Shown here: one piece after another, positions 17,154-56,068 of the stretch
Position numbering within the stretch: the first letter of the stretch is position 1
Layout: every line of letters begins with the position of its first letter
Virus record (IMG/VR): IMGVR_UViG_3300037467_001655
Length of the DNA stretch: 64,000 bases
From: a virus
Strand: one strand, 5' to 3'
The notes under the pieces: generated by a model
What the model was told of the DNA's origin: nothing
Databases searched by the model: none
The model's input: only the letters and a program-made list of their open reading frames with translations
Program-made: the position numbers and the translations under genes

Positions 17154-17534
17154 ATGGACACCCCTATCATCGTCCGCACCTTTTTTCCCGAACTCGATGC
17201 CGTGATAAATCTCGGCCTGGCGCTGCAACATTCGTTCAATCTGCCCGTGGTCGACGCCCTCTACAACGCGATAGCCGTGGTCAGCGACAACGCCCGCGAC
17301 AAGGGAGCACGCGACAGCGACGTCTACGACGCGTTCCACACCGGGCTGACCGGCACCACCACAGTGCCCGGCAACCGTGACGAGGTGATCGTCACCGCCC
17401 ACCTCGCCCGCGCGCTGATCTACATCGACCGCCTGGACTCGATCCTGGCTGTCGCAGCAGCCTTCCCGGCAGCCGTCGCCGCGATCGCCACCACGCCCGA
17501 CACAGCGCAACCGCTCGATATCCTTCGAGCGTGA
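17154..17534 (+). CDS. Hypothetical protein (126 aa, helical) driven by the early module
   Basis: ATG directly after the conserved leader RBS. Confidence 0.8.
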   Translation: MDTPIIVRTFFPELDAVINLGLALQHSFNLPVVDALYNAIAVVSDNARDKGARDSDVYDAFHTGLTGTTTVPGNRDEVIVTAHLARALIYIDRLDSILAVAAAFPAAVAAIATTPDTAQPLDILRA

Positions 17535-17761
17535 GCAGGCGAGGAAAAGACCCCGCAGGGCCAGGCGCGCTGGCCGTCGTCGCCCGGATCCGGGGCGAAC
17601 TCGACCGGCGGGGGATGGACCAGCAGGCACTTGCTGCCGCGATCGGGCGGTCGACCAGCTACGTTTCCACGCGGATGCGTGGTGAGCTGCCTTTCGATCT
17701 GAATGACGTCGAGAACATCGCCATCGTCCTCGAACTCCCGTGCTCGCAACTGATCGGCTGA
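17531..17761 (+). CDS. XRE-family HTH regulator (76 aa)
   Basis: RIRGELDRRGMDQQALAAAIGRSTSYVSTRMRGELPFDLNDVENIA. Confidence 0.85.
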   Translation: MSRRGKDPAGPGALAVVARIRGELDRRGMDQQALAAAIGRSTSYVSTRMRGELPFDLNDVENIAIVLELPCSQLIG

Positions 17762-17984: not shown

Positions 17985-20059
17985 CAGCTCGCCTTCCTCG
18001 CGTGTCGCGCATGGCTTTCCCGGATCGCGTCGGCGAGCAGCCGCCGCCGCGGTGCTGATGCCGCGATCAGCTGCCGGGCCGTGTCCTGCCGCGCGGTCGC
18101 GGCCTGTTGCTCGGCGTACGCGGCGACGGCGCGGCGGGCTACGTCGTCCAGCACGCTGGTGTCAGTGGCAGGTTTGGATTGCCGCGGCGCGAACGACGCG
18201 ACCAAGGCCAAGTCGCCGTCGCGGTCGCGGACGCGTTGCACAGCCGGGTTCAGGAATCCCGGCGAGTTCACCGCGTGCCCGATCAGCAGTTCCGGTGCAC
18301 CGCCGACGCGTTCCCAATGCCCGGAATGCGGTGTCTGGAGAGCGAGTTTCACCATTTTTTCGTCGGCGGTGGCCGCGATGCAGCCCGACACCCAGATCCC
18401 GATATCGTCCTCACCGGCGAGTACGTATGCCCAGCAGGTGGTTACGTCGTCGTAGTGCTCAAGGGCGGCGCGCATGCCCTTGCCGGCGACAGCGTGACCG
18501 CCGCCGACCGTGAGCCGGCCGACGCCCATGATGCCGCCGGAGTCGAGGTGGATGGGGGACTGGTGGAACGCGGCGTACCCGGTGTTGCTGTGGTACGGGG
18601 TGACTTCCATGTCCGGGTATGCGGTGTGGTGCGCCTTCCAGCACGCGAGGTGACCGAGCACGCGACCTTCCGCAGTCACATGGATCGGGGTGGGATCGGT
18701 CAGGCCCGGGTCCTCGAAGAACGCGGCCGGATAGATGTCGGGTTCCACGATCCGGGCCTTCGCCGCTGCCGCGACCAGGGCGAGCGGCGGCGGAGTGTTC
18801 ACACTGTCGCCGATGGTGATCACGGTGTCCCGGAACTCGGGCACTGAAACGAGGGTTGCTGCCGCGACTTCGACCGTGTCCCAGCGCATCACGACCGGGG
18901 CTCCGCTCGCGTACAGCTGTTCGGCGGCGTCCAGCGACACCGTGTTCCCCGCGGCGTCGGCGAGGACTTCGGATTTCACCCACAGTTCGGCGCTGGGGCG
19001 GGTGACTCCCGCTTCGACCTGCATCAGCGCTTCGTCTGCGTCGGGCCCGTCCAGGAGGGTGCCGGTGCCCCACAGGCCGTCCTCACGCAGGTCCAACGCC
19101 TGGACGGCGCCGATGGTGAGGCCGCCTTCGTGGGCGGGCAGGTCGGCGCGCTGCCATTTCAGCGGCATCGGGAGCACGGTGTCCACCAGCTCCACAGTGC
19201 GCGACATCATGAATTGCCCAGAGCGGCCGATCACGCCGGTAGGGACGAGTAGGGCCTCAAACGAGCGGGCCATGGTGGTGCCTCCTGTGTCTGCTGCTGA
19301 CGCTACTCGAGCCGGGGCCGGATTCTCGAGTGCTGATTCCACGATCGCGACCACACACCGGCAGCCGGCCACTTCCTCCGGTGGACCACCGATCCACCCC
19401 GGATACGGGAGCGTCGCGGAGCCGACGACGAAATCGGTTCCGAGCGGGACGCGTTGGCGGTCGGCGAGCTGATGCGTGTGCCGGGTGTGGCCGTCGTGCA
19501 ACGCCAACCACATCTTGTCCAAGGCATGCCCGGTGCCGGCGGTTTCGAGCTCGGCGCGCGCGATGCGGGCGGCGTTGAACACGCCCACAGCGGTCCGGCC
19601 GATCTCCGTGGCATCGCCACGCCACGAGTCGGCGTAGGACAGTGCCCGCGCCGCTGCTTGCCGTACCGCGTCGAGTGGTTGCCCGGCCGTCTTGCGGATC
19701 GCGGCATCGACGCGTTTACGGGCGCGGGCGGGGATCCCTGACATTCGTTCCCGCATCGCGCCGACCATGCGGTTGCGCCACTCGCCCAACCTGTCCCGGT
19801 CATCGCCCAGCAGCCGGTCCACGATCGCGCCGAACCGTGGCAGGAAACCGTTGTCCAGCTCCGATTCCCACGCCGCGGCGGTGCGGGTGACCGCGTCCGG
19901 GTCGGGCGGGATATCGCCGACGCTGGCGGCGGTGAGCACCGGCAGCGCGGCCTGTGTGGCGGTGCCGAGCCATGCGCGGATCGCGTTGGCGGCCAGGTCC
20001 TCCAGTTCCCGTTCCAGGGTGAGGATTTCGACCAGTGCGCTCCGCTGCTCGGCTCTCAC
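17984..20059 (-). CDS. MuF-like minor capsid / capsid maturation protease fusion
   Basis: GTG overlapping the portal stop; MuF motifs KMWLALHDGHTRHTH, LPYPGW.GGPPEEVAGCRC; protease part RVLGHLACW, GEDDIGIWVSG. Confidence 0.85.
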   Translation of the reverse strand: MRAEQRSALVEILTLERELEDLAANAIRAWLGTATQAALPVLTAASVGDIPPDPDAVTRTAAAWESELDNGFLPRFGAIVDRLLGDDRDRLGEWRNRMVGAMRERMSGIPARARKRVDAAIRKTAGQPLDAVRQAAARALSYADSWRGDATEIGRTAVGVFNAARIARAELETAGTGHALDKMWLALHDGHTRHTHQLADRQRVPLGTDFVVGSATLPYPGWIGGPPEEVAGCRCVVAIVESALENPAPARVASAADTGGTTMARSFEALLVPTGVIGRSGQFMMSRTVELVDTVLPMPLKWQRADLPAHEGGLTIGAVQALDLREDGLWGTGTLLDGPDADEALMQVEAGVTRPSAELWVKSEVLADAAGNTVSLDAAEQLYASGAPVVMRWDTVEVAAATLVSVPEFRDTVITIGDSVNTPPPLALVAAAAKARIVEPDIYPAAFFEDPGLTDPTPIHVTAEGRVLGHLACWKAHHTAYPDMEVTPYHSNTGYAAFHQSPIHLDSGGIMGVGRLTVGGGHAVAGKGMRAALEHYDDVTTCWAYVLAGEDDIGIWVSGCIAATADEKMVKLALQTPHSGHWERVGGAPELLIGHAVNSPGFLNPAVQRVRDRDGDLALVASFAPRQSKPATDTSVLDDVARRAVAAYAEQQAATARQDTARQLIAASAPRRRLLADAIRESHARHARKAS

Positions 20060-21891
20060 TGGTCCGACCGCCACATCGGGTGCGTGCCGGTGGTCAACGC
20101 TTCCCGGCACACCGACGCCACCAGCGTGCGGAGCTGGTCACGGGAAACGCCTGCGCTGGCGCAAATTTCGTCGTCCAGCACCTCTTCCCACCCGTCGATC
20201 AGACGATCCACGTCGCCGGCAGAGCATGGGCCGAGATGCTGTTTCAGGTGCGTGTCCCGCGCTGGGACACCCTGCAGCTGGGCGTGGTTCGGGCGGGTCC
20301 GTCGCCGGTTGCCCGCCAACCCCATTGCCCGGTTGACGCACAACCGCACCGCGGTGTCCGCGGCGGCGGCCAGCTGCTCGCGCGTGTCCGGTACGCGCTG
20401 CTGCTCCAACTCCGGTGACGGCACGGGCGGTGGTGGCGGGGGTGCGGCGGGGGCGCGGTTGAGTTCGGGCAGGCCGAGCGCGGGAACGAGTGTGCGGAGC
20501 AGCGGTTCGAGGACGGGGACCAGGGCGGCGTCCTTGCGTACCTGGTCGAGCACCCACGCGGTCCAGCCTTCGCGGGTGGTCAGGTCGTAGCCGTCCTGTT
20601 CCTCCGACATGCCGAGCTCACGCAGGTACGCCTCCGCGCGGACCACGCCATCGGTGAAGCCGGTGCGCACCTTCTCCACCTGATCCGGTTCCGCCTCGAC
20701 ATCGCTGGTGTCATACCAGATCACGACATCCGAGTCCGGCACCATCGGCCGCAGCAACTGGGTGGTGAGGGCGGCGCAGATGGTTTCCATCTCCGGCGCC
20801 GCGTGCCAGCGCACGGCCTCCTCTTCGACGCCGTAGAGGCTCCAGTGGTTGAGGTCGGCCAGGCCGAGCAGCACTTCGGGCGGCATGTCGAGGGTCATGG
20901 CGAGACGCCGGACCGCTTTCTCCCGCGCGGCCTGCGCCTTGTCCGATACCTCGCTGTCGAATTTGATGTGCCGGATCTTGTCGACCCATTCGCCGGCCAC
21001 CTGCAAGATGATCGGCACCATGGCTTCCGCGCTGGACGGGTCCTGGATGGCTTTCGACATCGCCTCCTGCAATGCCACCCGCACCTCGTCGGCGGTGACG
21101 AACCGCGACAACGGTGCAGGTGCAGGCAGATTCGGGGCGTCCGGGTCCGGGGCACCGGTCGGGGCGGGTTTCGCCGGCATCGACACTTCGGTGGGCAGCA
21201 CGAGGATGCCGTTACCGGCCTGCCGGCTCTTGCCTGCGCCCTCGATGTTCTGGGACATCCGAACGATTTCCTTGAGGATCGGCAGCGCCGCCTTGGCGGG
21301 CGACCACGCGAGCCGGGCCCGGCGTGGGTCCTGCCGCCAGATCCGCGACAGCGTGTCCGCTTTCGGGTCCATCGTGTAGTTGGTGCCGTCCTCGAGTTCG
21401 AGTTCGGCGGTGTCGCCGCGCGGTTTCACCTCGTCGTTGGACAGGACATGCCACTGTTCTTCGCCGTCGGGGTAGATGATCGCCAACCACGCTTCGCCGG
21501 GAATCATCATCAGCGGGGCGAGGCGGCCGAGCATCTGCGATTGGCCGGTGGCTCCGCCCGCGATCTGCCGGACCACCGCACGCGCCGCGGCGTTCTCAGT
21601 AGATCCGGTGGGCTTGCCCGTCTCCGGGTCCAGGTCGGACGCGACCAGCCGGAACCTGGAGAGCAGAGCGGTTTTCCACAGCAGCGAAAACGACAGCTCG
21701 CCGACGAGGTCGAGCATGTCCCACAGCTCTTCCTGCCACTTCTTCGTCTCGCCACGCGGTTTGGTGACCTTGCCCCACTTCGCCGGCGGGACGGTGACCG
21801 CTGCGGCGGTGAGCGCGGACAGCGACGAAACCACCTGCGGCTGGGTGGGGTCCGCGGTGGTGGTGGTTTTGCGCCGCCAGATCATGCTCAT
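20056..21891 (-). CDS. Portal protein
   Basis: WQEELWDMLDLVGEL, IPGEAWLAI, SRIWRQDPRRAR.AWSP, RRLAMTLDMPPEVLLG. Confidence 0.88.
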   Translation of the reverse strand: MSMIWRRKTTTTADPTQPQVVSSLSALTAAAVTVPPAKWGKVTKPRGETKKWQEELWDMLDLVGELSFSLLWKTALLSRFRLVASDLDPETGKPTGSTENAAARAVVRQIAGGATGQSQMLGRLAPLMMIPGEAWLAIIYPDGEEQWHVLSNDEVKPRGDTAELELEDGTNYTMDPKADTLSRIWRQDPRRARLAWSPAKAALPILKEIVRMSQNIEGAGKSRQAGNGILVLPTEVSMPAKPAPTGAPDPDAPNLPAPAPLSRFVTADEVRVALQEAMSKAIQDPSSAEAMVPIILQVAGEWVDKIRHIKFDSEVSDKAQAAREKAVRRLAMTLDMPPEVLLGLADLNHWSLYGVEEEAVRWHAAPEMETICAALTTQLLRPMVPDSDVVIWYDTSDVEAEPDQVEKVRTGFTDGVVRAEAYLRELGMSEEQDGYDLTTREGWTAWVLDQVRKDAALVPVLEPLLRTLVPALGLPELNRAPAAPPPPPPVPSPELEQQRVPDTREQLAAAADTAVRLCVNRAMGLAGNRRRTRPNHAQLQGVPARDTHLKQHLGPCSAGDVDRLIDGWEEVLDDEICASAGVSRDQLRTLVASVCREALTTGTHPMWRSDQ

Positions 21892-25967: not shown

Positions 25968-26669
25968 TCATGCTGTCGCCCGGTCGGTGCGGATCTGCCG
26001 CCGTGCTCGCGGGATCGGCCGGGCGTCCGGCTCATCGATCGTGTCTTCGTCCCATTCCAGCGGCAACTTCCATCGCCGCTTCCGCGCGTACGCCCGCGCG
26101 CGGCTGGACGGGCCGGGCTGCATTTGCAGCCGCTCGAACAGCTCGACCACCTGCCGATGCCGGGCCGCGGTGATCGTTCCGTCGCCATGCATCAGTGGAC
26201 CGAAGTTGTTCGACACCAGCCCCAGTTGCCTCGCCATCTCTCGCATCGTCCACCCGGCCGCCACCAACGCCTGCAACCTGCGCCGGGCGCCGATCACGGG
26301 CACCCGGTCTCCGTCGCGGGCCACGCGCACGACTTCGGTGAAGTCGGCTGGAACCTGCACCGACAAGATGCGGTCAGCAGTGGACTTCGAAACATACTGC
26401 GCGGGCGGACGACCGTTCTTCCCGACGAGCAACGTGCCGATGTAGGACCGGTGGATGCCGGCGAGCTCGACAATGCGCCGGTAGCTGAGCCCCGCCGCCT
26501 TCAGTGTGGCGAGATGTGCGCGCACGGGATCCGCTGGCACCCGGTCGGGGTTCCACCGCCCATACGCTTTCTGCCGTTCGCGGTGACCCATGTAGCAGGC
26601 CGGGCACAGGCCACGGCGGAGCGGGCGCGGCGAAGGGTCGCGCCCGCACTTGCACACCATGGAGGTCAT
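25968..26669 (-). CDS. Zn-finger plus tandem HTH DNA-binding protein
   Basis: CKCG...LCPACY; ADPVRAHLATLKAAGLSYRRIVELAG; GARRRLQALVAAGWT; W..PLEWDEDTIDEP. Confidence 0.8.
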   Translation of the reverse strand: MTSMVCKCGRDPSPRPLRRGLCPACYMGHRERQKAYGRWNPDRVPADPVRAHLATLKAAGLSYRRIVELAGIHRSYIGTLLVGKNGRPPAQYVSKSTADRILSVQVPADFTEVVRVARDGDRVPVIGARRRLQALVAAGWTMREMARQLGLVSNNFGPLMHGDGTITAARHRQVVELFERLQMQPGPSSRARAYARKRRWKLPLEWDEDTIDEPDARPIPRARRQIRTDRATA

Positions 26670-27151
26670 CGCGCCGAAACGGGTTCGCTGGTGCGAGCCC
26701 CGGCGCCGAGCGCCCACGTGGTCAGGTCCACCAGCTGCTGCGCGTGCGCGCGGTCGGTGACGACCAGGCGCACCACGATCCGGAAGTCCTGTTCACCGAT
26801 CGGCGGGTCGTAGACGTCGATCGCCCATTTCCCGGCGTGTTCGCCCCGGTAGTACGCGGACGCGAAGAACCGGTGGTCGCTGGTGTGGTAGACGCCCTCG
26901 GTGAGGGTTTCGGTCAGCGGGTTGATTGGCGCGCCCTGGGCGACGTCGGTGGGGTCGAGGTCGCCGAGCAGGGCCCGGAACGCTGCGACGGCCTGGTCCT
27001 GCGCCTCCTGGGCGGCGTTGAGGCGGTCGTTCCAGGCGAACCACTCCTGGCCGTCGCTGTACGGCTCGTCGTAGCGGTAGCTGTCCACTTCGGCGTCGGC
27101 CTTGACGACCGCATTGGCGGCGGCGATGTGCTCGGGGGTGAAGATGATCAT
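26666..27151 (-). CDS. Hypothetical acidic protein (161 aa), leader-driven
   Basis: Preceded by the conserved leader. Confidence 0.8.
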   Translation of the reverse strand: MIIFTPEHIAAANAVVKADAEVDSYRYDEPYSDGQEWFAWNDRLNAAQEAQDQAVAAFRALLGDLDPTDVAQGAPINPLTETLTEGVYHTSDHRFFASAYYRGEHAGKWAIDVYDPPIGEQDFRIVVRLVVTDRAHAQQLVDLTTWALGAGARTSEPVSAR

Positions 27152-29239: not shown

Positions 29240-30673
29240 TCAGTGGAGGTAGGTGTCGATCCAGGCCAGGCCGCCGCGGTCCAGGCGCAGTTTCGCGCGG
29301 GTGACCGCCACATACGCGAGCATGATGTCGGCCGGGGTGACGTCCTCCATCTCCCCGTCGTCGTCGCGCTTCGGCTCCGGGAAGTCCTTCGCGATCCGCA
29401 CCGAATCCCACTCGCGGCCCTTGGCTTTGTGCCCGGTCGACACGATGGTGTCGGCGCGTTTCTCGTCGGCCAGCTGGTCCACCGCGCGGATGATCGTGTC
29501 CACGCCGTGGGAGTCGATGAGGTCCACGAACGGGCGCAGGTCGCGGCCCTGCGGTTCGTCGGCGAAGTCCTGCACCTCGCCCCAGGTGCCGAACACCCAC
29601 AGCTCCGGGTGCGAGGTGCGGCGGCCGTCCTTCAAATCGCGGGCGGCTTCGGCCAGCCGTTTGATGCCGGCACCGCCGCCGACGAGCGCTACGCGGTGTC
29701 CGGCGCCCATGAGGGTCATGCACTGGCCCATGGCTTCGCCGTTGGTGCGGCACAGGATCGCGTCCGGCGCCGGGAGGTCGGCGAGCGTGGAGGCCAGCGA
29801 CGGGTTGCCCGACAGCCGCAACGGGGTGTCGAGCAGCGACAGCCATTTGTTGGCTTCCTCGGCGATCTTCGTGCCGAACCGCCACGACTGAGACAGGTAC
29901 AGGCGGCGGTCGGCGGGCCACTCGGTGAGCGCGTCGACCGCGCCCCGCCACGCGTACAGCTGCTGCGCCGAATCCCCCACCGCGATCTGCTGCGCGTGGG
30001 TCTGGGACTGCACGAGGTTCGCCACGAGCGGGTTGGAGTCCTGGCACTCATCGAGCATGACCAGTTCCACGGGCAGGACCGGGTTGGTCAGTGCCCAGAT
30101 TTTCAGGTAGTGGTCGTGGTCGAAGCGGAGCAGGCCGTCCGGGCTGATGATGTCGGCCCAGGCGCGCCGCGCGAACGGCAACACCGTGTTGGTGAGGGCC
30201 TTGTGGTCGTCGCGGGTCATGCCGGTCTGGTGCGGCACATGCTCCGCGGCGACGGCCGGATCGGCGGAGTAGCAGAACCGCGACACCGTTTCGATCGCGA
30301 TGCGCGCGATCTGCACCGGCGACACCCGAAGCGCGCCCAGATCCAGCCAGGTGTTGATGCCGAGCAGTTCCGCGGCGCGCCGCGCGGGCTGGCGGGGCCC
30401 GTTGAGGCGGTGCCGGTAGTTGCGGCCGACCGCGCCGAACGCCAGGCTGTGCCCGGTCTTGCACTGCACGCTGTCGGGGAAGCTGGCGCGCGCTTCGTCG
30501 GCGATCGCCCGGTTGTAGGCGATGTAGAGGGACGGCACGGTGACCTCACGGGCCACCATTTTCAGTGTCGAGGTTTTCCCCGTCCCGGCGCCGGCCTGGA
30601 TGACGAGGTTCGCGCCGTTGCGGGCGGCGTCGATGATCTGGGCTTGCTCGGGTGTCGGCTGGTATGCGGACAT
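29240..30673 (-). CDS. SF1 UvrD/FBH1-like helicase
   Basis: AGAGTGKT, DECQD, GDSAQQLYAWRGA, SWRFG, TGHKAKGREW, YVAVTRA; ATG 30673 after the leader. Confidence 0.9.
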   Translation of the reverse strand: MSAYQPTPEQAQIIDAARNGANLVIQAGAGTGKTSTLKMVAREVTVPSLYIAYNRAIADEARASFPDSVQCKTGHSLAFGAVGRNYRHRLNGPRQPARRAAELLGINTWLDLGALRVSPVQIARIAIETVSRFCYSADPAVAAEHVPHQTGMTRDDHKALTNTVLPFARRAWADIISPDGLLRFDHDHYLKIWALTNPVLPVELVMLDECQDSNPLVANLVQSQTHAQQIAVGDSAQQLYAWRGAVDALTEWPADRRLYLSQSWRFGTKIAEEANKWLSLLDTPLRLSGNPSLASTLADLPAPDAILCRTNGEAMGQCMTLMGAGHRVALVGGGAGIKRLAEAARDLKDGRRTSHPELWVFGTWGEVQDFADEPQGRDLRPFVDLIDSHGVDTIIRAVDQLADEKRADTIVSTGHKAKGREWDSVRIAKDFPEPKRDDDGEMEDVTPADIMLAYVAVTRAKLRLDRGGLAWIDTYLH

Positions 30674-30759: not shown

Positions 30760-31230
30760 TCAGTTGTTGCGCAGGCGGGCCTGCTCGAGGAGGCGCACGT
30801 ACTCGGTGGCCGACAGCATCACCGAGACCGGGGTTCCGTCGCCGTCGCGGATGACCTGTTCGTCGCCGGTCGCGATCGCGTCGAACTGTTCGGTGAACGT
30901 CTGCGGCGCGCCGTGATGGCACGTGCAGTCCTCCCGCACGCACTGTTCGTCCTCGGCGGGGTGGCCGCAGCGGTCGCACATGTCGGCCACATCACCGGTC
31001 GGGGTGACGGAGGTGCGGCGCACGTTCGACATGCTGTAGCCCGCGCGGCGGTGGATCAGCCGCAAGCGGCCGTCGTTCACGCCGACGACGACGAATTCCT
31101 TTCCGTGCTCGCTGCTGTAGGACCCGTGGTAGACCACCACGTCGCCGATGGCGAGCAGGGGCAGCGCGATCACGTACAGGGCGCGGGCGGCCAGAACGTC
31201 GGTCAAGGGGATGCGAGTGGTGTTGGGCAT
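30760..31230 (-). CDS. Hypothetical protein (156 aa) with a Zn-binding middle and a Phd/YefM-like C-terminus
   Basis: CDRCGH...CTCHH; QVIRDGDGTPVSVMLSATEYVRL. Confidence 0.75.
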   Translation of the reverse strand: MPNTTRIPLTDVLAARALYVIALPLLAIGDVVVYHGSYSSEHGKEFVVVGVNDGRLRLIHRRAGYSMSNVRRTSVTPTGDVADMCDRCGHPAEDEQCVREDCTCHHGAPQTFTEQFDAIATGDEQVIRDGDGTPVSVMLSATEYVRLLEQARLRNN

Positions 31231-31306
31231 TTCCGGCTCCTCCGGTTTTGTGACGGCTATTCCGTCTGACAGAAACGAATATACACGGGTATGCGTGTAT
31301 GGTCAA
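31231..31306 (-). promoter_or_regulatory. Early-gene module (promoter, operator 31282-31299, leader)
   Basis: ttgaccatacacgcatacccgtgtatatt...gtcagacggaatagccgtcacaaaaccggaggagccggaaATG. Confidence 0.85.
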
Positions 31307-31357
31307 GTTGTGGCGGATCCGGTAACGACGTGTCGAGTGTTGGCGATAATCCAGGCC

Positions 31358-31783
31358 ATGACATTCAACCGCGCTCTGATCGGATCGCTCGTAATCGCCA
31401 CAGCCGGAAGTCTTTTCGGCGTCACCACGTCAGCGCAAGCTGTCCCGACCGGTAGCTACCAAGTGCCAGACCTGACCTTCCAGGCAACCGGACCGCACGA
31501 GGTCACCGCCACCATCCACAACCCGAACGATAACGGAATCTGTTGGGCCACCATCGGAATCGACGGATCTGTCCACGAATTCGCCGAACACAGCGGCGCC
31601 GGCTACGCAGCCGCCGGGCAGACAATCCAGGTCAAGCGGGAGAACCTTCCCGCAGGTCGGTACAGCGTCGGCGGCGGTTGTGGCGCGACGACCACCGACG
31701 TCCATCAGGTGCTCGCGCCGAGCCAGGAAGTGACCGTGCCCGGCGACACTCCGCCCCCGTCCACCGGTTCGTTCGGCAGCTGA
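31358..31783 (+). CDS. Secreted protein (141 aa), moron-like
   Basis: Signal peptide MTFNRALIGSLVIATAGSLFGVTTSAQA; GATAAT 7 nt before the ATG suggests a leaderless mRNA. Confidence 0.75.
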   Translation: MTFNRALIGSLVIATAGSLFGVTTSAQAVPTGSYQVPDLTFQATGPHEVTATIHNPNDNGICWATIGIDGSVHEFAEHSGAGYAAAGQTIQVKRENLPAGRYSVGGGCGATTTDVHQVLAPSQEVTVPGDTPPPSTGSFGS

Positions 31784-31788
31784 CCTGA

Positions 31789-33387
31789 TCAGCCGGTGAT
31801 CCCGTCCGGCAGTTGTCCCCAGCTGCCTGGCGTCCGTGAGGCAGCCGCCTGGCCGCCGCTGGCGAGTTCATCGAACGCGATCGTCGCAGCGGCCACGCGG
31901 TCCGGCTGGTGCTGTGTCTCCTGCCAGCGGATCGCCCGCGCTTCCATCGCGGCCAGCCGATACCCGACTACCCGGCATCGTCCGACCGATGTCGCGTGCC
32001 GCAGGCCCACAGACCGAACCAGCGCGTTGCCCGACGCTGTCCACGGCCGGATGTGGAACGGCCGGTGCGCTGGCACCCGCAGGCCTTCCACCGTGCCGGG
32101 AGCGTCGATGTTGTTCGCGGCCTCGATTACCAGATCGTCATAGGCGCGGCGCAACAGGTCCCCGTATGTCTTCGGTGCGCTGTACGCCTCGAACACCACT
32201 TCGGTTGCGCCGGTGGACAGTGCGAGCAGGCAGGCGCGGCGCGGCCACTCGGCCGAGGACAGCTGCCCGGATGCGTCCTCGGTCAGCACGACCGTGCCGT
32301 CGCCGGCCAGGCCCGCGGCGATGATGCCGGCTTCGTCGCCCTTCCCGGTTTCGGCGGGGTCGATAGTCACGATCCGGCGGTACAGGGCCGGTTCCGCGGC
32401 GAGCCGGTACGTGTCGAACCAGGCTTGCGAGAACAGGGCACCGCCGAGCGGGTACGGGGAGCCGAGATACAGGGCGGCCCACACGCGTTCGCCGACCTGG
32501 CGGCGGATCCGCGCCCAATCCTCGACGGTTCGTCCGCGCGCGGACTCGAGCTGCTCGCCCTCGGCGCGGCCGAGTGCGTCCGGGACACCGGCGGTCGCGA
32601 CGGCGGGGAAGTTGATGTGAACCCATTCCCGTGCGTCGGGGTCGCTGTCGGCGTCCTGCTGGAGCAGGAACCCGGCGAGATCGGCCTCATGCCACCGGGT
32701 CTGAATCAGGATGATCGGTGCGCCCGGCGCGAGGCGGGTCGATAGGTCGCCCTGGAATCCGGCGATGACCTTCGCGCGTTCGGTGGGCGAGTCCGCGGCG
32801 GCCATGCCCTTCAACGGGTCGTCAATGATCAGCATGTCGCAGGGGCGGCCGGTGATGGTGCCGCCCATACCGACAGCGACGACACCGCCCTTGTGTCCCT
32901 TGATCTGCCAGTTCCCGGCCGCGAACCGGTCGCCGGCCAGCGCCAGGCCGAGCCGGTCGGGCAGCTCCACACCGGACAGGGGATCGCGGGCGCCGGTGCC
33001 GTGGGAGGTGATCAGGTTGCGGGCGGCCTGCGATGCTTGGCGCGCCAGATCCTCGGAGTAGGAGGCGATGAGGATGCGGGTGTCGGGGTTGCGTTGCAGC
33101 TGCCGCAGCACCGTCCACACCGCGACCAGCGTCGACTTACCTTCCTGCGGTGGGCAGGTGATCAGGAGCCGGCCGCCGCGGGTGGTCATCGCTTCTTCGA
33201 TGTGTTCGGCCATCATGCGGATGGCTGGGGTGATCACGTAGGCGGGGTCGATGCGTTGGGCGAGGTCGGCGGAGTGGCGGCAGCTGGTGAGGGCGGCGCG
33301 GCGGGTGATGGCTTGCCGCGCCCACGCCATGAACGCTGCCCGCTCACGGTCGGGCAGCTGCGCCGCGCGCTCCCACACATCAGTCAT
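31789..33387 (-). CDS. terL: Terminase large subunit
   Basis: Walker A PPQEGKS, Walker B MLIIDDP, IQTRWHEADLAG, nuclease TIDPA...DEAGII, QPDRVAA. Confidence 0.92.
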   Translation of the reverse strand: MTDVWERAAQLPDRERAAFMAWARQAITRRAALTSCRHSADLAQRIDPAYVITPAIRMMAEHIEEAMTTRGGRLLITCPPQEGKSTLVAVWTVLRQLQRNPDTRILIASYSEDLARQASQAARNLITSHGTGARDPLSGVELPDRLGLALAGDRFAAGNWQIKGHKGGVVAVGMGGTITGRPCDMLIIDDPLKGMAAADSPTERAKVIAGFQGDLSTRLAPGAPIILIQTRWHEADLAGFLLQQDADSDPDAREWVHINFPAVATAGVPDALGRAEGEQLESARGRTVEDWARIRRQVGERVWAALYLGSPYPLGGALFSQAWFDTYRLAAEPALYRRIVTIDPAETGKGDEAGIIAAGLAGDGTVVLTEDASGQLSSAEWPRRACLLALSTGATEVVFEAYSAPKTYGDLLRRAYDDLVIEAANNIDAPGTVEGLRVPAHRPFHIRPWTASGNALVRSVGLRHATSVGRCRVVGYRLAAMEARAIRWQETQHQPDRVAAATIAFDELASGGQAAASRTPGSWGQLPDGITG

Positions 33388-33620
33388 GACCTGGCAACCC
33401 ATCCCGCGCCGTGCTCTATCCCATCGAGATACGAATCGACCGTTGTATAGCTGGCGTCGGGTAGGACCTCGGTCTGATTGATGCGGACGACGAATCCCGC
33501 GCCAGTCCGCGCGGCACCCAGGCGCTCCACGGTGACCGGAATTTTCAGCACCTCATGGATGCGTGCGCAACGCTGACGCAAGTGCGCGGCGTCCTCGTCC
33601 TGATCCCACACATCAGTCAC
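33384..33620 (-). CDS. Hypothetical protein (78 aa)
   Basis: Coupled to terL. Confidence 0.7.
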   Translation of the reverse strand: MTDVWDQDEDAAHLRQRCARIHEVLKIPVTVERLGAARTGAGFVVRINQTEVLPDASYTTVDSYLDGIEHGAGWVARS

Positions 33621-33623
33621 AGG

Positions 33624-33830
33624 TCAGCCCTCGACCACCATGCGCCGCAACGGCGAATGCTCGTCCACCAGCTGATCGGCATACACCAGGCCGGTCATGT
33701 GCGCGCCCCACCGGCCATCGCTGAGTGGCTGTTTCTGCCACGCGACGAATTCGGACCCGATCACCACGGAGCCCAACGGCAGCGCGTCCAGCTCGGCCGC
33801 CGTCAAGCCGCGGCGCTTCTCTCCGGCCAT
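33624..33830 (-). CDS. Small phage protein with an ELDALP-GSVV motif
   Basis: LTAAELDALPLGSVVIG...AWQK. Confidence 0.7.
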   Translation of the reverse strand: MAGEKRRGLTAAELDALPLGSVVIGSEFVAWQKQPLSDGRWGAHMTGLVYADQLVDEHSPLRRMVVEG

Positions 33831-34180
33831 CAGTCGTCCTTGTCGTTCTGCGTCGGCGTCTCGCCTCCGAGCGCGTTGCTGATGGCTGCATTCAGGTCAG
33901 CCAAACGAGCCTCTGCGGCGGCCACCTCGTCCTTCAGCCTCTCGTTGGTCAGCGCCAGGCGCGTCTGCTCGCTACGGAGTTTCTGCGTCTCCGAACGGAG
34001 CTCAGCCTGGCTCAACTGTTCGATGTCAAGATAGGCGTCACTGCTCCAATCGACCGTGCTGGCACGAATCGGCGTGAACACCAACTGATCATCGGAGACC
34101 ACTAGGACGAAACCGCGATCGTCCGTCAGTCCGTCGATCGCGGCACACAATTGGCGCTTCATATCGTCACGAAGACTCAT
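33830..34180 (-). CDS. Coiled-coil hypothetical protein (116 aa)
   Basis: Heptad C-terminus; coupled stop/start. Confidence 0.7.
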   Translation of the reverse strand: MSLRDDMKRQLCAAIDGLTDDRGFVLVVSDDQLVFTPIRASTVDWSSDAYLDIEQLSQAELRSETQKLRSEQTRLALTNERLKDEVAAAEARLADLNAAISNALGGETPTQNDKDD

Positions 34181-34563
34181 CAGTCGTCCTTATCGTCTTC
34201 CGGGTAGACGGGCACGATCCGCGGATCGCGGCGCATCGCTTCCGACACCACCCGCTGCCACCAACCCGGGGTCGGCATGTGGTCGGATTTTGCACGCCAC
34301 ACGCGCACCCGGATCCGGTCGCCGGCCTGATCGGCCACCGACGTAACCAGCTGCTCTACTTCGGATTCGAATCGCACGTACAGGCGGTCGATTTCGGACC
34401 AGATGGTGGAGGGGATCGGGTCGCGGCCAGACTCCCACGCTTGGACCGTGTTGGGTCGGACGCCGCCGAGCAGGTCGCCGAGTTCGGGACGTTCGACGCC
34501 GAAGTATCGGCGAGCGACTTGCAGCTCGGCGCTGCGCCCGAATTCGCGTTTGGGGTGAGTCAT
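34180..34563 (-). CDS. HTH protein of the Aca2/DUF1870 type
   Basis: SAELQVARRYFGVERPELGDLLGGVRPNTVQAWESGRDPIPSTIWSEIDRL matches the ELQ..R...E....G.V.....WESGR..P...E...L pattern of Aca2; C-terminal GWWQRVV. Confidence 0.7.
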   Translation of the reverse strand: MTHPKREFGRSAELQVARRYFGVERPELGDLLGGVRPNTVQAWESGRDPIPSTIWSEIDRLYVRFESEVEQLVTSVADQAGDRIRVRVWRAKSDHMPTPGWWQRVVSEAMRRDPRIVPVYPEDDKDD

Positions 34564-34577
34564 AGACTCCCTTTCGT

Positions 34578-34645
34578 CCAGCACTATCGCCGCTCGATAG
34601 TGCTGGGCCCCATGATCACACGCTGTGCGGTGTGACCATGGGGCC
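34578..34645 (-). other. Two tandem hairpins in the intergenic region upstream of the Aca2-like gene
   Basis: ccagcactatcg/cgatagtgctgg and ggccccatg.tcacac/gtgtga.catggggcc. Confidence 0.6.
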
Positions 34646-34661
34646 AGGGAGCGTGGGAGGG

Positions 34662-35018
34662 TCACGCGGCGATCGGGGCGGGCATGTTCACCCGGTCGGC
34701 GGTGTCGGACAGCTGGGGGTGGACGAACCGCAGGTAGGCGCGGCACACGGTGACGTAGATCGTCTCGTGCTGGTCGACCTGATCCGACATCGCCAGCGTG
34801 TTGATGTGGTCGCCCGCGATAGCACCGGCGAAAGTGCGATCGGTGACATCGCCTTCGGCGGTGGTCCACTTGACCTCGACCGCGCCCGGCTCGCCGGTCT
34901 CCTCGCACATCGCGTTGTCCCAGCCGGTGTTGGTGACCTCGATGCGGATCCGGTCGTCGGCGTCGATGCCGAGGGCTTCGGCGATCAGGGCGGCGGGGGT
35001 GGTGATGGTGGCGGTCAT
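34662..35018 (-). CDS. Acidic hypothetical protein (118 aa), leader-driven, immediately upstream of the Aca2-like gene
   Basis: ATG 35018 after the conserved leader. Confidence 0.8.
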   Translation of the reverse strand: MTATITTPAALIAEALGIDADDRIRIEVTNTGWDNAMCEETGEPGAVEVKWTTAEGDVTDRTFAGAIAGDHINTLAMSDQVDQHETIYVTVCRAYLRFVHPQLSDTADRVNMPAPIAA

Positions 35019-35093
35019 ATCCGGCTCCTCCGGTTGTTGACGGCTTCTCCGTCTGACAAGAACTACAATACACGTATGTGCGTGTACGTGCAA
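35019..35093 (-). promoter_or_regulatory. Early-gene module (promoter, operator 35069-35086, leader)
   Basis: ttgcacgtacacgcacatacgtgtattgt...gtcagacggagaagccgtcaacaaccggaggagccggatATG. Confidence 0.85.
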
Positions 35094-35157
35094 GCGGTTC
35101 GGTGGAAACAGATCGGCCCCGGCCGCTGGATGCGGGCCGGGGCCGGATCGGTGGGGC

Positions 35158-35382
35158 CTACTCCTCGCCCCAGTCGTAGCCGCGCTGGTAGGCGGTGTTC
35201 GCGGCCTCCTCGGTCGCGCCCGCCCGCTCCGCGGCGTCGAACGCGCGGGCCACGGCCTCCACGGTGGCTGGCATCTCGGGGTATCCGTCCTCGGCTTCGG
35301 TGTGGGCCTGCGCGCCGACGCGGTTCAGCTCGGCCAGGGCGGCGTCCAGGGTGGTCGCGGGTGCGGTGGCGAAAGTGGTCAT
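35158..35382 (-). CDS. Acidic hypothetical protein (74 aa), leader-driven
   Basis: MTTFATAPATTLDAALAELNRVG... Confidence 0.8.
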   Translation of the reverse strand: MTTFATAPATTLDAALAELNRVGAQAHTEAEDGYPEMPATVEAVARAFDAAERAGATEEAANTAYQRGYDWGEE

Positions 35383-35458
35383 GTCCGGCTCCTCCGGTAG
35401 GTGACGGCTCAATCCGTCTGACATGACCAACAATACCCGCACGCGCGTGTATACGCAA
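35383..35458 (-). promoter_or_regulatory. Early-gene module (promoter, operator 35434-35451, leader)
   Basis: ttgcgtatacacgcgcgtgcgggtattgt...gtcagacggattgagccgtcacctaccggaggagccggacATG. Confidence 0.85.
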
Positions 35459-35462
35459 GTGG

Positions 35463-36986: not shown

Positions 36987-37472
36987 CTACCCGCCCGGCT
37001 CCGGCTCCACCAACTCCGCATCCAGCACACCGCCGGCCGCCTTGTTGATCTCCAGCATGAAATCGTTCTTCAGCCGCTCCAACTCCCCAGCACCAGCACC
37101 GATCTGCACCGACACATCCGGCGTATCCAGGCCATGCAACCGCATCAACCGTGCCAGAGCCTTATCGGCCACGCTGGCGCCCTTCGCGAACCGCTCCATA
37201 TCGCCCTCGTCGCGACCCTCCAACATCACACCCAGCCCGTGCTCCCACAGCTTCTCCGCACGCGCCACCATCAACGGCCGCACCGTCTCCGCGGCCTTCT
37301 TCGCCGAACGCTTCAACGCAGCGTTCACGGCCTTCCGCGCCCCCGACTCCGACGCATACCCCTCCGCTTCCGCGATCTCCGCGTAGGTCAGGCCCTTCAC
37401 CGCCAGATCCAGGCAGCGTTGCTGCTTCGCCTTCACCTCGATCTTCGTGACCGCGGCACCACGCGCTGTCAC
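36987..37472 (-). CDS. Terminase small subunit-like HTH protein
   Basis: RCLDLAVKGLTYAEIAEAEGYASESGARKAV...LARLMRLHGLD. Confidence 0.75.
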   Translation of the reverse strand: MTARGAAVTKIEVKAKQQRCLDLAVKGLTYAEIAEAEGYASESGARKAVNAALKRSAKKAAETVRPLMVARAEKLWEHGLGVMLEGRDEGDMERFAKGASVADKALARLMRLHGLDTPDVSVQIGAGAGELERLKNDFMLEINKAAGGVLDAELVEPEPGG

Positions 37473-52659: not shown

Positions 52660-52877
52660 CAGTTGCCTGCGGTACTTCTTTGTTACGACTGGTTTCCGGT
52701 TATTAGCTCACCTACAGGTTGGAAAGTCAACCGCCGGTATAGGACTGGCAAACCTACGGTAGGCGATTGATAATCGGGAGTAATGCTTGATAATGACGAA
52801 CGGCGTGGTAAACGCTTCAACATCCCGACAACGACCGGTAGGCAAGCATGTGCTTGGCCGCAAACAGAGGGACGGCA
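52660..52877. promoter_or_regulatory. Divergent immunity control region with CCTAC-N-GTAGG-like sites
   Basis: AT-richer; palindrome CCTACGGTAGG at 52753-52763, related CCTACAGG near 52711 and CCGGTAGG near 52836. Confidence 0.6.
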
Positions 52878-53240
52878 ATGGATCTAGGGGAGCTGATTCG
52901 GATCAGCAAAGGGGACCGATCCTATGAGCAGCTGGCCCGCGCCGGCGGACTCGAATCCGGTACCCCACTTCTCGGGGCCGCGAGATGGCAGCAGTTAGCA
53001 ACGCAGCAACTGAATGCCTTCCCCGCACCGCGCACCATGACCGCGATCGCCACCGCGCTCGGCGTCAGCGAGGAAACCGTATTGCTCGCCACCGGAACAA
53101 GTCTCGGCCTCCAGCTCCGGCGCCGGAACCGACTCCTGGAGCTCATGCCCGACAAGGCCGCGGAACTCCCTGACCAGTGCATAACCTCGGTTCTCACCAC
53201 CATCCGCGTGATGTGCGACCTCCGGGAGGGGCCCCGATGA
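52878..53240 (+). CDS. Immunity repressor (CI-like HTH, no S24 peptidase domain)
   Basis: LGELIR..KGDRSYEQLARA...WQQL...FP.PRTMTAIATALGVSEETVLLA; co-transcribed with int. Confidence 0.75.
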   Translation: MDLGELIRISKGDRSYEQLARAGGLESGTPLLGAARWQQLATQQLNAFPAPRTMTAIATALGVSEETVLLATGTSLGLQLRRRNRLLELMPDKAAELPDQCITSVLTTIRVMCDLREGPR

Positions 53241-54973: not shown

Positions 54974-55048
54974 TCACCCGATACCGGACGGCACCAGATG
55001 CAGCAACCGCTGGATGAGCAGATAGGCCAGCCAGGGGTTGACGATCAC
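54974..55048 (-). CDS. 24-aa hydrophobic micropeptide coupled to the lysin stop
   Basis: GTGA overlap; MIVNPWLAYLLIQRLLHLVPSGIG. Confidence 0.5.
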   Translation of the reverse strand: MIVNPWLAYLLIQRLLHLVPSGIG

Positions 55049-55896: not shown

Positions 55897-55924
55897 GGCG
55901 GGCACCGTAGGCCGCAGGGGTGCA
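55897..55924 (-). promoter_or_regulatory. Putative leaderless late promoter TGCACCCC-N7-TACGGT-N7-ATG
   Basis: Consensus match at the lysin start. Confidence 0.7.
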
Positions 55925-56068
55925 GCCGAGCCGTTTGTGATCTTCACAATACCCGCGCGTGTGGGTCACGGTTTCCGCACATCAACGGTGTATAGATACC
56001 GAAACCGGCGCGGCACAATACCAGCTTATACGTGTATGATTCGGGGGCTATTGGAAGGCAGGTGAGAA

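What the first reader, a model, noticed from the sequence alone, without database searches (positions are those of the whole stretch)
34180..35458. Aca2/DUF1870-like HTH gene at the end of a leader-driven operon of small acidic proteins: candidate anti-CRISPR/anti-defence locus
Seen: 34180-34563 reproduces the Aca2 N-terminal pattern (ELQ..R...E..G.V.....WESGR..P) and lies directly downstream of two small acidic unknown ORFs (118 aa and 74 aa). Each has its own strong promoter, operator and leader, and two more hairpins sit before the HTH gene. Established: Aca2 represses acr operons by binding promoter inverted repeats and also 5'-UTR RNA stem-loops, which is the architecture of the repeated module here. 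Inference: this protein may control the whole 12-site regulon, and the leader-driven ORFs are candidate new anti-defence proteins in actinomycetes.
Basis: partly seen in the sequence, partly recalled or inferred. Interest (0 to 1): 0.85.

Follow-up and report, generated by a model that had tools for sequence, protein, structure and literature searches.

The report
Aca2-type regulator inside a phage terminase operon
A soil Nocardia-type temperate phage carries a true Aca2/YdiL-family DNA-binding protein whose ribosome site is locked in a conserved folded RNA, but it always travels with the same acidic partner gene next to the terminase gene, so it looks like a built-in phage regulator rather than a proven anti-CRISPR locus.

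Summary
The ORF at 34180-34563 (minus strand) is an Aca2/YdiL-family HTH protein by Pfam, by PDB sequence search and by fold. It follows two small acidic ORFs, each with a promoter, an inverted repeat and a leader. Two hairpins precede it.

The anti-CRISPR reading is only partly supported.
- In 13 of 14 related Nocardia-type prophage or phage loci, the HTH gene sits upstream of the same TerL family.
- In 11 of 14 loci the 118-aa acidic ORF directly precedes it. The supposed cargo is therefore a conserved partner, not variable cargo.
- The HTH gene is not the last gene of its operon. Overlapping ORFs run on from it into TerL.
- The two hairpins belong to a 93-nt Y-shaped RNA whose closing helix pairs an anti-SD with the HTH gene's Shine-Dalgarno. 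It has compensatory changes and occurs once per genome.
- The promoter repeat TACAC-N8-GTGTA has the geometry of the ZF40 Aca2 operator (GTTC-N8-GAAC). Two of Aca2's three base-contacting residues differ, and binding is untested.

My best reading is a feedback regulator of strong cassette promoters and of its own translation, working like Aca2. Anti-defence roles for the acidic ORFs remain possible but have no direct support. The scan had noted the dispersed module on this same window only.

The parts
35158..35382 (-). 74-aa acidic ORF (P0003, pI 4.18); a single-gene cassette
   Evidence: Homologues lie in L001, L003, L004, L017, L018 and L019. No family match.
35383..35460 (-). Promoter and leader of the 74-aa ORF: -35 TTGCGT, repeat TACACGCGCGTGCGGGTA (35434-35451, one mismatch), -10 TATTGT, leader hairpin 35402-35420, SD-in-loop CCGGAGGAGCCGG 35385-35397
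35105..35146 (-). Terminator-like GC hairpin (CCGGCCCCGGCC...GGCCGGGGCCG) followed by ATCTGTTTCC, after the 74-aa ORF
   Evidence: Read from the sequence. The simple terminator scan did not call it.
35019..35093 (-). Promoter and leader of the 118-aa ORF: -35 TTGCAC 35088-35093, repeat TACACG-CACATA-CGTGTA 35069-35086, -10 TATTGT 35065-35070, leader hairpin GACGG/CCGTC 35039-35053, SD-in-loop 35021-35033
34662..35018 (-). 118-aa acidic ORF (P0002, pI 4.27); the conserved partner directly upstream of the HTH gene
   Evidence: AF2 pLDDT 81 with no fold match.
34561..34653 (-). 93-nt Y-shaped RNA element. Anti-SD GCUCCCU 34646-34652 pairs with SD AGGGAGU 34566-34572. Hairpin 1 is 34608-34643; hairpin 2 is 34578-34606; the ATG is 34561-34563.
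   Evidence: The covariance model finds one copy per genome, always in front of the HTH gene.
34180..34563 (-). Aca2/YdiL-family HTH protein (P0001, 127 aa)
33830..34180 (-). 116-aa coiled-coil ORF (P0004). Its start overlaps the HTH stop. It is a variable insert between the HTH gene and TerL.
   Evidence: It is 95% identical to the L003 ORF, while its neighbours are about 57% identical.
33384..33830 (-). Two small ORFs (68 aa and 78 aa) linking the HTH gene to TerL; variable between lineages
31789..33402 (-). Terminase large subunit, the last gene of the same transcription unit
36987..37472 (-). 161-aa protein with a sigma-70 region 4-like HTH; context only. A possible small terminase subunit, conserved 2-5 kb upstream of TerL in 8 related loci.
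   Evidence: No confirmation.

Best explanation
P0001 is a dimeric Aca2/YdiL-fold HTH regulator. It is built into the terminase operon of a temperate Nocardia-type siphophage, as part of a conserved unit: sigma-A-type promoter with TACAC-N8-GTGTA repeat, then a 5' stem-loop leader, the 118-aa acidic ORF, the Y-shaped RNA, and the HTH gene.

Shown:
- family and fold membership;
- the conserved gene order;
- the RNA structure, which hides the HTH gene's Shine-Dalgarno.

Inferred:
- The protein is made only in small amounts, or only when ribosomes finishing the 118-aa ORF open the closing helix. That ORF's stop codon lies 9 nt before the anti-SD.
- Once made, the dimer feeds back negatively. It would bind the promoter repeat, which lies between -35 and -10 of its own promoter and of 5-6 other cassette promoters. 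It may also bind its own two-hairpin RNA, as Aca2 does.
- The effect would be to cap expression of strongly driven cassettes, including the operon that ends in TerL.

So it works like an Aca2. Whether the genes it controls are anti-defence genes is open.
For: Family and fold.
- Pfam PF08965 above its gathering score.
- Aca2 7ezy at E 1.8e-7 over both domains.
- 27 of 54 family members hit PF08965.
- AF2 pLDDT 95.8. The only full-length PDB fold matches are YdiL, Aca2 and SO3848.

Operator geometry.
- ZF40 IR1 is TGTTCG-CGATTG-CGAACA, with core GTTC-N8-GAAC (PMC8633003).
- Here the core is ACAC-N8-GTGT, placed between -35 and -10.
- The outer TACAC...GTGTA arms recur in module promoters of most related lineages.

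RNA element.
- z = -7.9 in the window.
- The same Y shape is the minimum-energy fold in 8 of 11 lineages.
- 92% of cells are paired, against 35-45% in slid controls. Seven pairs carry compensatory changes. 0 of 500 shuffles reach the observed covariation score.
- The anti-SD and SD covary in L004 (GAUCCC with GGGAUC).
- Five G-U cells fit RNA on the sense strand.
- The covariance model finds one copy per locus, always before the HTH gene, including four lineages outside the training set.

Precedent. Aca2 binds two 5'-UTR hairpins, and RNA motifs occur between genes of aca2 operons (PMC13551039).
Against: - No binding data of any kind.
- Aca2's R30 and Y34 equivalents are N38 and A42, so specificity cannot be carried over.
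- One-turn spacing of half-sites is common to many HTH dimers.
- L003 has a nearly identical recognition helix but only a degenerate repeat in the homologous promoters. L022 has none.
- The right arm of the repeat overlaps the -10 region, so part of its conservation may be promoter function.
- Other HTH proteins in the genome could be the repeat binder.
- SD sequestration could be relieved by translational coupling alone, with no protein binding the RNA.
Confidence: 0.45

Rival explanations
1. This is a true acr-aca (anti-defence) locus. The 74-aa and 118-aa acidic proteins inhibit CRISPR-Cas or another Nocardia defence system, and P0001 is their Aca repressor.
For: - The formal architecture matches: small acidic ORFs with no homologues, strong promoters with a repeat between -35 and -10, and an Aca2-family gene directly downstream.
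- Aca2 RNA motifs are reported to predominate in Actinobacteria as an 'actino-motif' (PMC13551039).
- Known acr loci can sit inside structural operons (my own knowledge of Pseudomonas Mu-like phages).
Against: - The 118-aa ORF precedes the HTH gene in 11 of 14 loci, at identities similar to those of the HTH protein. The usual conserved-aca, variable-acr signature is therefore absent.
- There is no similarity to any known protein, and no recognisable fold.
- The variable genes lie downstream of the HTH gene, not upstream.
- No self-targeting or CRISPR context could be examined.
Confidence: 0.2
2. This is a packaging protein. P0001, alone or with P0002, is the DNA-recognition (small terminase-like) component. 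The conserved palindromes in front of it are a pac or cos recognition site read as DNA.
For: - An HTH homologue lies upstream of this TerL family in 13 of 14 loci.
- It abuts or overlaps TerL in L015-L018 and L020.
- No small terminase subunit is confidently identified in the genome.
- The invariant C-terminal P-x-F/Y-P-E-D-D tail could be a docking motif.
Against: - The fold is that of the dimeric Aca2/YdiL regulators. No terminase small subunit appears among the structural matches.
- The HTH protein and TerL evolve independently. TerL is 74-80% identical in L015, L016 and L018, while the HTH protein is 40-50%.
- A separate 161-aa HTH protein conserved upstream is an equally good small-terminase candidate.
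- G-U pairs and SD:anti-SD covariation point to RNA rather than a DNA site.
- More distant family members sit in unrelated contexts.
Confidence: 0.15
3. This is a two-gene conflict or switch module. The acidic 118-aa protein and the HTH protein would form a toxin-antitoxin-like or antirepressor-repressor pair, with the RNA setting their ratio.
For: - Adjacency is strict, with translational linkage across the RNA element in 11 of 14 loci.
- A structural homologue in Mycobacterium phage Bipper is annotated 'antitoxin'.
- HigBA-type systems put the HTH antitoxin second (my own knowledge).
Against: - The 118-aa protein is acidic and has no toxin-like fold or family.
- Nothing so far shows the two proteins binding each other (see Tried and rejected).
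Confidence: 0.1

Closest known systems
Aca2 of Pectobacterium phage ZF40 (PDB 7b5j, 7vjo-7vjq) and of Oceanimonas (7ezy); Pfam PF08965 / DUF1870
   Same: - N-terminal HTH plus C-terminal alpha/beta domain (TM 0.63-0.68).
- Gene placed just downstream of a small ORF in one operon.
- Promoter repeat with 4-bp cores 8 bp apart, lying over the core promoter.
- Two hairpins next to a ribosome-binding site.
   Different: - 22-25% identity.
- R30 and Y34 are replaced by N38 and A42.
- A different half-site (ACAC rather than GTTC).
- The RNA lies directly before the regulator's own gene and hides its SD in a closing helix.
- The upstream gene is a conserved partner, not a known or variable Acr.
- The operon continues into TerL.
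- The same repeat sits in 6-7 dispersed promoters.
YdiL (Salmonella, PDB 1s4k) and SO3848 (Shewanella, PDB 2ox6)
   Same: The same two-domain fold (TM 0.65-0.72). Both have no acr association (PMC8434428).
   Different: They are chromosomal, stand-alone genes of unknown function, not phage genes inside a terminase operon.
Start-associated sequences (SAS, GGGATAGGAGCCC) and extended SAS of Cluster K mycobacteriophages (PMC3203893)
   Same: A dispersed motif 3-7 nt before ATG starts, with AGGAG flanked by self-complementary bases (here CCGG-AGGAG-CCGG). Many copies have an inverted repeat just upstream. It sits in front of unrelated small genes.
   Different: The flanks differ in sequence. Here the upstream repeat is a short 5-bp stem with at least 8 compensatory variants across lineages, which supports an RNA hairpin. 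The Cluster K authors found little support for RNA pairing. About half of the copies here also carry a promoter with an operator-like repeat.
Late-gene regulators placed just upstream of terminase genes in Gram-positive phages (RinA, ArpU, Ltr families; my own knowledge)
   Same: A small DNA-binding protein held next to the packaging genes across divergent phages.
   Different: No sequence or fold relation. Those are activators of a late promoter. Here the promoter looks host sigma-A-type, and the repeat position predicts repression.

Membership tests
Aca2/YdiL structural family (PF08965, DUF1870) | Profile match above Pfam's gathering score | tested here: met
   28.0 bits against 23.8, E 2.7e-6. 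27 of 54 aligned relatives also match.
Aca2/YdiL structural family (PF08965, DUF1870) | N-terminal HTH followed by the family's C-terminal alpha/beta dimerisation domain | tested here: met
   AF2 pLDDT 95.8, with helices at 11-20, 25-31, 37-45 and 52-77, strand 84-87, helix 99-112 and strand 116-119. The only full-length PDB matches are 1s4k, 7ezy, 7vjp, 7b5j and 2ox6.
Aca2/YdiL structural family (PF08965, DUF1870) | Base-contacting residues R30, Y34 and R39 of ZF40 Aca2 conserved | tested here: not met
   The alignment, read with PMC8633003, gives R30->N38, Y34->A42 and R39->R47. Only R39 is kept. A different DNA specificity is expected.
Aca2/YdiL structural family (PF08965, DUF1870) | Homodimer in solution | not tested
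   No homodimer prediction or experiment was run.
Anti-CRISPR-associated (acr-aca) operon | The aca gene lies directly downstream of small ORF(s) in one transcription unit | tested here: met
   The 118-aa ORF, a 98-nt spacer and the HTH gene lie on one strand with no terminator between them.
Anti-CRISPR-associated (acr-aca) operon | Inverted repeat over the core promoter, bound by the Aca | tested here: inconclusive
   The repeat is present between -35 and -10 and has Aca2-like geometry. Binding is not testable here. The repeat is degenerate in L003, L004, L019 and L022.
Anti-CRISPR-associated (acr-aca) operon | The upstream gene is a known Acr, or varies among relatives while aca is kept | tested here: not met
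   There are no homologues outside this phage group. The 118-aa ORF is kept in 11 of 14 loci.
Anti-CRISPR-associated (acr-aca) operon | The upstream protein inhibits a CRISPR-Cas or other defence system | not testable with these tools
   This needs phage or plasmid challenge assays.
Aca2 RNA motif ('actino-motif' of Birkholz et al. 2024) | Two conserved hairpins next to the ribosome-binding site that match the published motif | tested here: inconclusive
   Two covarying hairpins are present. The paper that defines the motif is not held, and Rfam has no such family. Identity with the published motif could not be checked.
Terminase small subunit | Gene immediately upstream of TerL | tested here: inconclusive
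   It is adjacent or overlapping in L015-L018 and L020. Three ORFs intervene in the window, and up to 4.4 kb intervenes in L022.
Terminase small subunit | Small-terminase fold or oligomerisation core; co-evolution with TerL | tested here: not met
   No terminase structure appears among the PDB or BFVD matches. TerL is 74-80% identical where the HTH protein is 40-50%.

The most novel reading that the evidence does not exclude
An Aca2-family protein has been taken over as a core phage regulator. It would act as a dual DNA- and RNA-binding governor. It would gate its own translation through a Y-shaped SD-sequestering RNA. It would also repress a dispersed regulon of about seven strong promoter cassettes, among them the terminase operon, across a whole lineage of Nocardia temperate phages. 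Aca2-type control would then not be limited to anti-CRISPR genes.
Probability: 0.25. Interest if true: 0.7.

Novelty: new variant of a known kind. Interest (0 to 1): 0.5.

Why it matters
Aca2 is the model for HTH proteins that regulate through both DNA and RNA, and it is used as a flag for finding anti-CRISPR genes.

This locus shows that, in actinobacterial phages, an Aca2-family gene with all the formal acr-aca hallmarks can be a fixed part of the packaging operon with a conserved partner gene. Guilt-by-association calls of 'new Acr' from such loci need comparative checks.

The locus also offers a compact, covariation-supported RNA element (93 nt, one copy per genome) in which to test whether RNA binding by Aca2-fold proteins extends to autogenous translational control.

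It supplies two conserved, fold-less acidic proteins in a host group with no characterised anti-defence genes. Finally, it adds a Nocardia-phage counterpart to the unexplained SAS/ESAS motifs of Cluster K mycobacteriophages.

Tried and rejected
- Megablast of the locus against 50,697 phage records: no match.
- tblastn of P0002, P0003 and the 161-aa HTH protein against the phage records: no match.
- No whole genome is held for this window. The records behind L001, L003, L004 and L010 could not be searched.
- The search for related loci with HTH alignments failed for lack of a conserved stretch. With P0001 alone it found nothing in viral contigs. The TerL alignment worked.
- Rfam: nothing relevant.
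- The Nature 2024 Aca2-RNA paper is not held, and the NAR 2026 paper has no held supplements. The published 'actino-motif' could therefore not be compared.
- P0002 fold searches: best Foldseek TM below 0.4 and best VIA Z 4.0. The Atlas gave no usable hit.
- Complex prediction of two P0001 copies with P0002: no verdict (score 0.00, controls not run). This is not evidence either way.
- No RNA sequencing run holds the locus. The source is a soil metagenome.
- Rejected: the CI-like repressor as the obvious binder of the repeat. The immunity intergenic region 52600-52900 has no ACAC-type repeat. This is weak evidence only.
- Rejected: that the similarity of hairpin 1's tip to the operator (ACACC-N6-CGTGT in the window) is meaningful. 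It is absent in the closest relative, L001.
- Rejected: that the C-terminal DKDD tail merely reflects an overlapping ribosome site. The P-x-F/Y-P-E-D-D motif is kept where the downstream genes differ.
Full report
**What the window is.** The window is 64,000 bases of a 64,509-bp contig from a soil metagenome. It reads as one temperate siphophage genome, transcribed almost entirely on the minus strand. The gene order is:
- endolysin, 55045-55947;
- tyrosine integrase, 53177-54487 (plus strand), with a CI-like gene (52848-53240, plus) and a Cro-like gene (52417-52659) beside it;
- replication initiator, 48466-49458;
- a 161-aa sigma-70 region 4-like HTH protein, 36987-37472;
- the locus in question;
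- TerL, 31789-33402;
- a helicase, 29240-30673;
- portal, 20056-21891;
- MuF-like protein, major capsid, major tail and tape measure.

TerL is 48% identical to that of Gordonia phage Clawz and of Cluster B mycobacteriophages. The closest relatives are prophages of Nocardia species.

**The observation.** It is confirmed.
- P0001 (34180-34563, minus strand) passes Pfam PF08965 Aca2_YdiL at 28.0 bits against a cut-off of 23.8.
- Its best solved relative by sequence is Aca2 7ezy (E 1.8e-7), aligned over residues 13-101, that is, both domains.
- An exhaustive HMMER search gave 128 relatives. With 54 of them as alignment, AlphaFold2 gave a model at pLDDT 95.8.
- The only full-length PDB matches of that model are YdiL, four Aca2 entries and SO3848, at TM 0.63-0.72. 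All other matches cover the HTH only.
- BFVD adds full-length matches in mycobacteriophages annotated as HTH proteins, one of them as 'antitoxin'.
- The two upstream ORFs (118 aa and 74 aa; pI 4.27 and 4.18) are real and have no family.
- Each is preceded by TTGNNN, a 17-nt spacer that holds TACACG-N6-CGTGTA, TATTGT, a 5-bp stem-loop and CCGGAGGAGCCGG a few bases before the ATG.
- The repeat is strongly over-represented: 8 copies against 1.35 expected. I found 11 leader copies.

Two corrections apply. The 74-aa ORF is a closed cassette with its own terminator-like hairpin. The HTH gene is the second gene of an operon that runs on through overlapping ORFs into TerL.

**Comparative genomics changes the reading.** I collected 14 loci that hold this TerL family, through exact-protein look-ups and a TerL-based scan of species genomes. 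They come from Nocardia cerradoensis, N. pulmonis, N. miyunensis, N. panacis, N. farcinica, two unnamed Nocardia, an Actinomycetota MAG, Hoyosella and metagenomes.
- An HTH homologue (35-91% identical) lies upstream of TerL in 13 of the 14. It abuts or overlaps TerL in five of them.
- A homologue of the 118-aa ORF directly precedes the HTH gene in 11 of the 14, counting the divergent L020 copy. The 74-aa ORF recurs in about seven.
- The genes that vary are those between the HTH gene and TerL: none to six ORFs, and up to 4.4 kb.
- One of them, P0004, is 95% identical between the window and L003, although its neighbours are about 57% identical. It is flanked in the window by the repeated end GATAAGGACGACTGATG.

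The conserved-regulator, variable-cargo signature used to call acr genes is therefore absent upstream of this regulator. The HTH protein does not co-evolve with TerL either. TerL is 74-80% identical in L015, L016 and L018, where the HTH protein is 40-50%. The fold is not that of a small terminase subunit. A separate 161-aa HTH protein, conserved 2-5 kb upstream of TerL in eight loci, is at least as good a candidate for that role, though it is unconfirmed.

**The two hairpins are part of a larger RNA.**
- The spacer between the 118-aa ORF and the HTH gene folds into a Y shape. A closing helix pairs GCUCCCU (34646-34652) with the Shine-Dalgarno AGGGAGU (34566-34572). It encloses hairpin 1 (34608-34643) and hairpin 2 (34578-34606). 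The fold is -63.8 kcal/mol with z = -7.9.
- The same architecture is the minimum-energy fold in 8 of 11 lineages, with z from -3.6 to -7.1.
- On six lineages, 92% of cells are paired, against 35-45% when partners are slid. Seven pairs carry changes on both sides. No shuffle out of 500 reaches the covariation score.
- In L004 the anti-SD and the SD changed together (GAUCCC with GGGAUC).
- Five G-U cells fit an RNA on the sense strand.
- A covariance model built from these six finds exactly one strong hit per locus, always before the HTH gene. It also recovers the element in four lineages outside the training set (L015, L016, L018, L022).
- The stop codon of the 118-aa ORF lies 9 nt before the anti-SD. 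Terminating ribosomes could therefore open the helix (inference).

Rfam holds no such family. [quoted passage not shown] I could not compare sequences, because the defining paper is not held.

**The promoter repeat.** The ZF40 Aca2 operator IR1 is TGTTCG-CGATTG-CGAACA. Each base of the GTTC core is read by R30, Y34 and R39 (PMC8633003). The repeat here, T-ACAC-G-N6-C-GTGT-A, has the same 4-bp cores 8 bp apart, and it lies between -35 and -10.

The outer arms TACAC...GTGTA recur in cassette promoters of the window and of L001, L009, L015-L018 and L020, with lineage-specific inner bases (ACACG-N6-CGTGT or ACACAC-N4-GTGTGT). They are degenerate in L003, L004 and L019, and absent in L022.

Lineages with the ACACAC type share a recognition helix ending S-Y-Q-R-W, and those with the ACACG type have T-V-Q-A/S-W. 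L003, L004 and L022 break the pattern, and relatedness confounds it.

The residues matching R30 and Y34 are N38 and A42. One-turn spacing is common among HTH dimers, and the right arm overlaps the -10 region. The repeat is thus compatible with binding by P0001, but it is not assigned to it. Other candidates are the 76-aa XRE at 17531-17761, which follows the cassette with the most perfect repeat; the 249-aa HTH protein at 25968-26717; and the CI-like repressor, whose own intergenic region lacks the repeat.

**The leader.** The stem-loop before each cassette keeps its position, while its stem changes in at least eight compensatory ways across lineages: GACGG/CCGTC, GAGGG/CCCTC, GCCAG/CTGGC, GTCGG/CCGAC, GGCAG/CTGCC, GACAG/CTGTC, GGAAGG/CCTTCC and GCGG/CCGC. 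It is followed by CCGG-AGGAG-CCGG, which would present the SD in a loop.

Copies without a promoter follow terminator-like hairpins. This is the layout of the SAS and extended SAS motifs of Cluster K mycobacteriophages (GGGATAGGAGCCC, 3-7 nt before ATG, often with an upstream repeat; function unknown; PMC3203893). I read it as a 5' stabiliser plus translation-start element (inference). It bears no likeness to the operator, so it is not a mimic of the HTH site.

**Mechanism and odds.**
- Most likely (0.45): P0001 works like Aca2, as a dimeric feedback repressor. Its own synthesis is limited by the Y-shaped RNA. It acts on the TACAC-N8-GTGTA promoters and possibly on its own RNA. It belongs to a conserved promoter, 118-aa ORF, RNA and HTH unit inside the terminase operon.
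- A true acr-aca locus (0.2): it keeps the formal hallmarks but lacks the comparative signature.
- A packaging role (0.15): it fits the synteny, but not the fold, the mosaic evolution or the RNA evidence.
- A toxin-antitoxin-like or antirepressor pair (0.1): it is not excluded.

A complex prediction of P0001 with P0002 gave no verdict, and I use it neither way.

**Verdict.** Aca2-family membership is confirmed by sequence and fold, but with diverged DNA-reading residues. The anti-defence claim is untested and weakened by conservation of the supposed cargo. The most interesting product is the conserved SD-sequestering RNA in front of an Aca2-fold gene. The next is the finding that this gene is a fixed neighbour of TerL in a whole lineage of Nocardia phages. 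It is a new variant of a known kind, with interest 0.5.

Noticed in passing
window 17118(+), 27190, 27711, 28171, 30716, 31268, 35055, 35420, 36831, 46885, 49496 (all minus strand); also L001, L004, L009, L015-L020, L022: A stem-loop plus CCGGAGGAGCCGG leader precedes many unrelated genes. It recurs throughout related Nocardia prophages, with at least eight compensatory stem variants. It resembles the SAS/ESAS of Cluster K mycobacteriophages. Copies without a promoter follow terminator-like hairpins, which suggests processed or re-initiated cassettes.
   Followed up: partly
window 33830-34180 and L003:6336-6668: The 116-aa coiled-coil ORF is 95% identical between the window and L003, while the flanking genes are about 57% identical. 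In the window it is bracketed by the repeated end GATAAGGACGACTGATG, shared with the end of the HTH gene. This looks like a recent cassette exchange at a translational-coupling junction.
   Followed up: partly
window 36987-37472 (minus strand): A 161-aa protein with a sigma-70 region 4-like HTH (PHROG 645, labelled 'Rnase E'). It is conserved 2-5 kb upstream of TerL in eight related loci. It may be the small terminase subunit, separated from TerL by a run of small cassettes. It has no match in the phage records or in the PDB.
   Followed up: partly
window 29240-30673 (minus strand): A 477-aa DNA helicase (PHROG 1967, E 2.5e-90) lies between TerL and the portal gene. It sits behind a leader copy that has a terminator-like hairpin instead of a promoter. 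That is an unusual place for a replication-type gene.
   Followed up: no
window 17154-17761 (plus strand): A leader-driven 126-aa ORF with the most perfect TACACG-N6-CGTGTA repeat is followed by a 76-aa XRE/BetR-type HTH protein (Pfam BetR, E 6.8e-7). The pair is transcribed against the head genes. It is a second acr-aca-like pair and an alternative binder of the repeat.
   Followed up: partly
window 52417-53240: The immunity region next to the integrase holds a CI-like 130-aa HTH gene (plus strand) facing a Cro-like 80-aa HTH gene and two excisionase-like HTH ORFs (minus strand). The intergenic region has TTGATAAT direct repeats but no ACAC-type repeat.
   Followed up: partly
L011:357-1836: A distant family member (P0028, 29-36% identical) follows a DUF932 gene on a short metagenomic contig. 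This is a non-terminase context, possibly a conjugative element.
   Followed up: no
window 31148-31783 (plus strand): A plus-strand ORF with a signal-peptide-like N-terminus converges on the end of TerL, between TerL and the next cassette promoter.
   Followed up: no
P0001 residues 114-127 and alignment A3: The C-terminal motif P-R-I-x-P-x-F/Y-P-E-D-D is nearly invariant across the TerL-linked clade, whatever gene follows. It may be a docking tail for an unknown partner.
   Followed up: no
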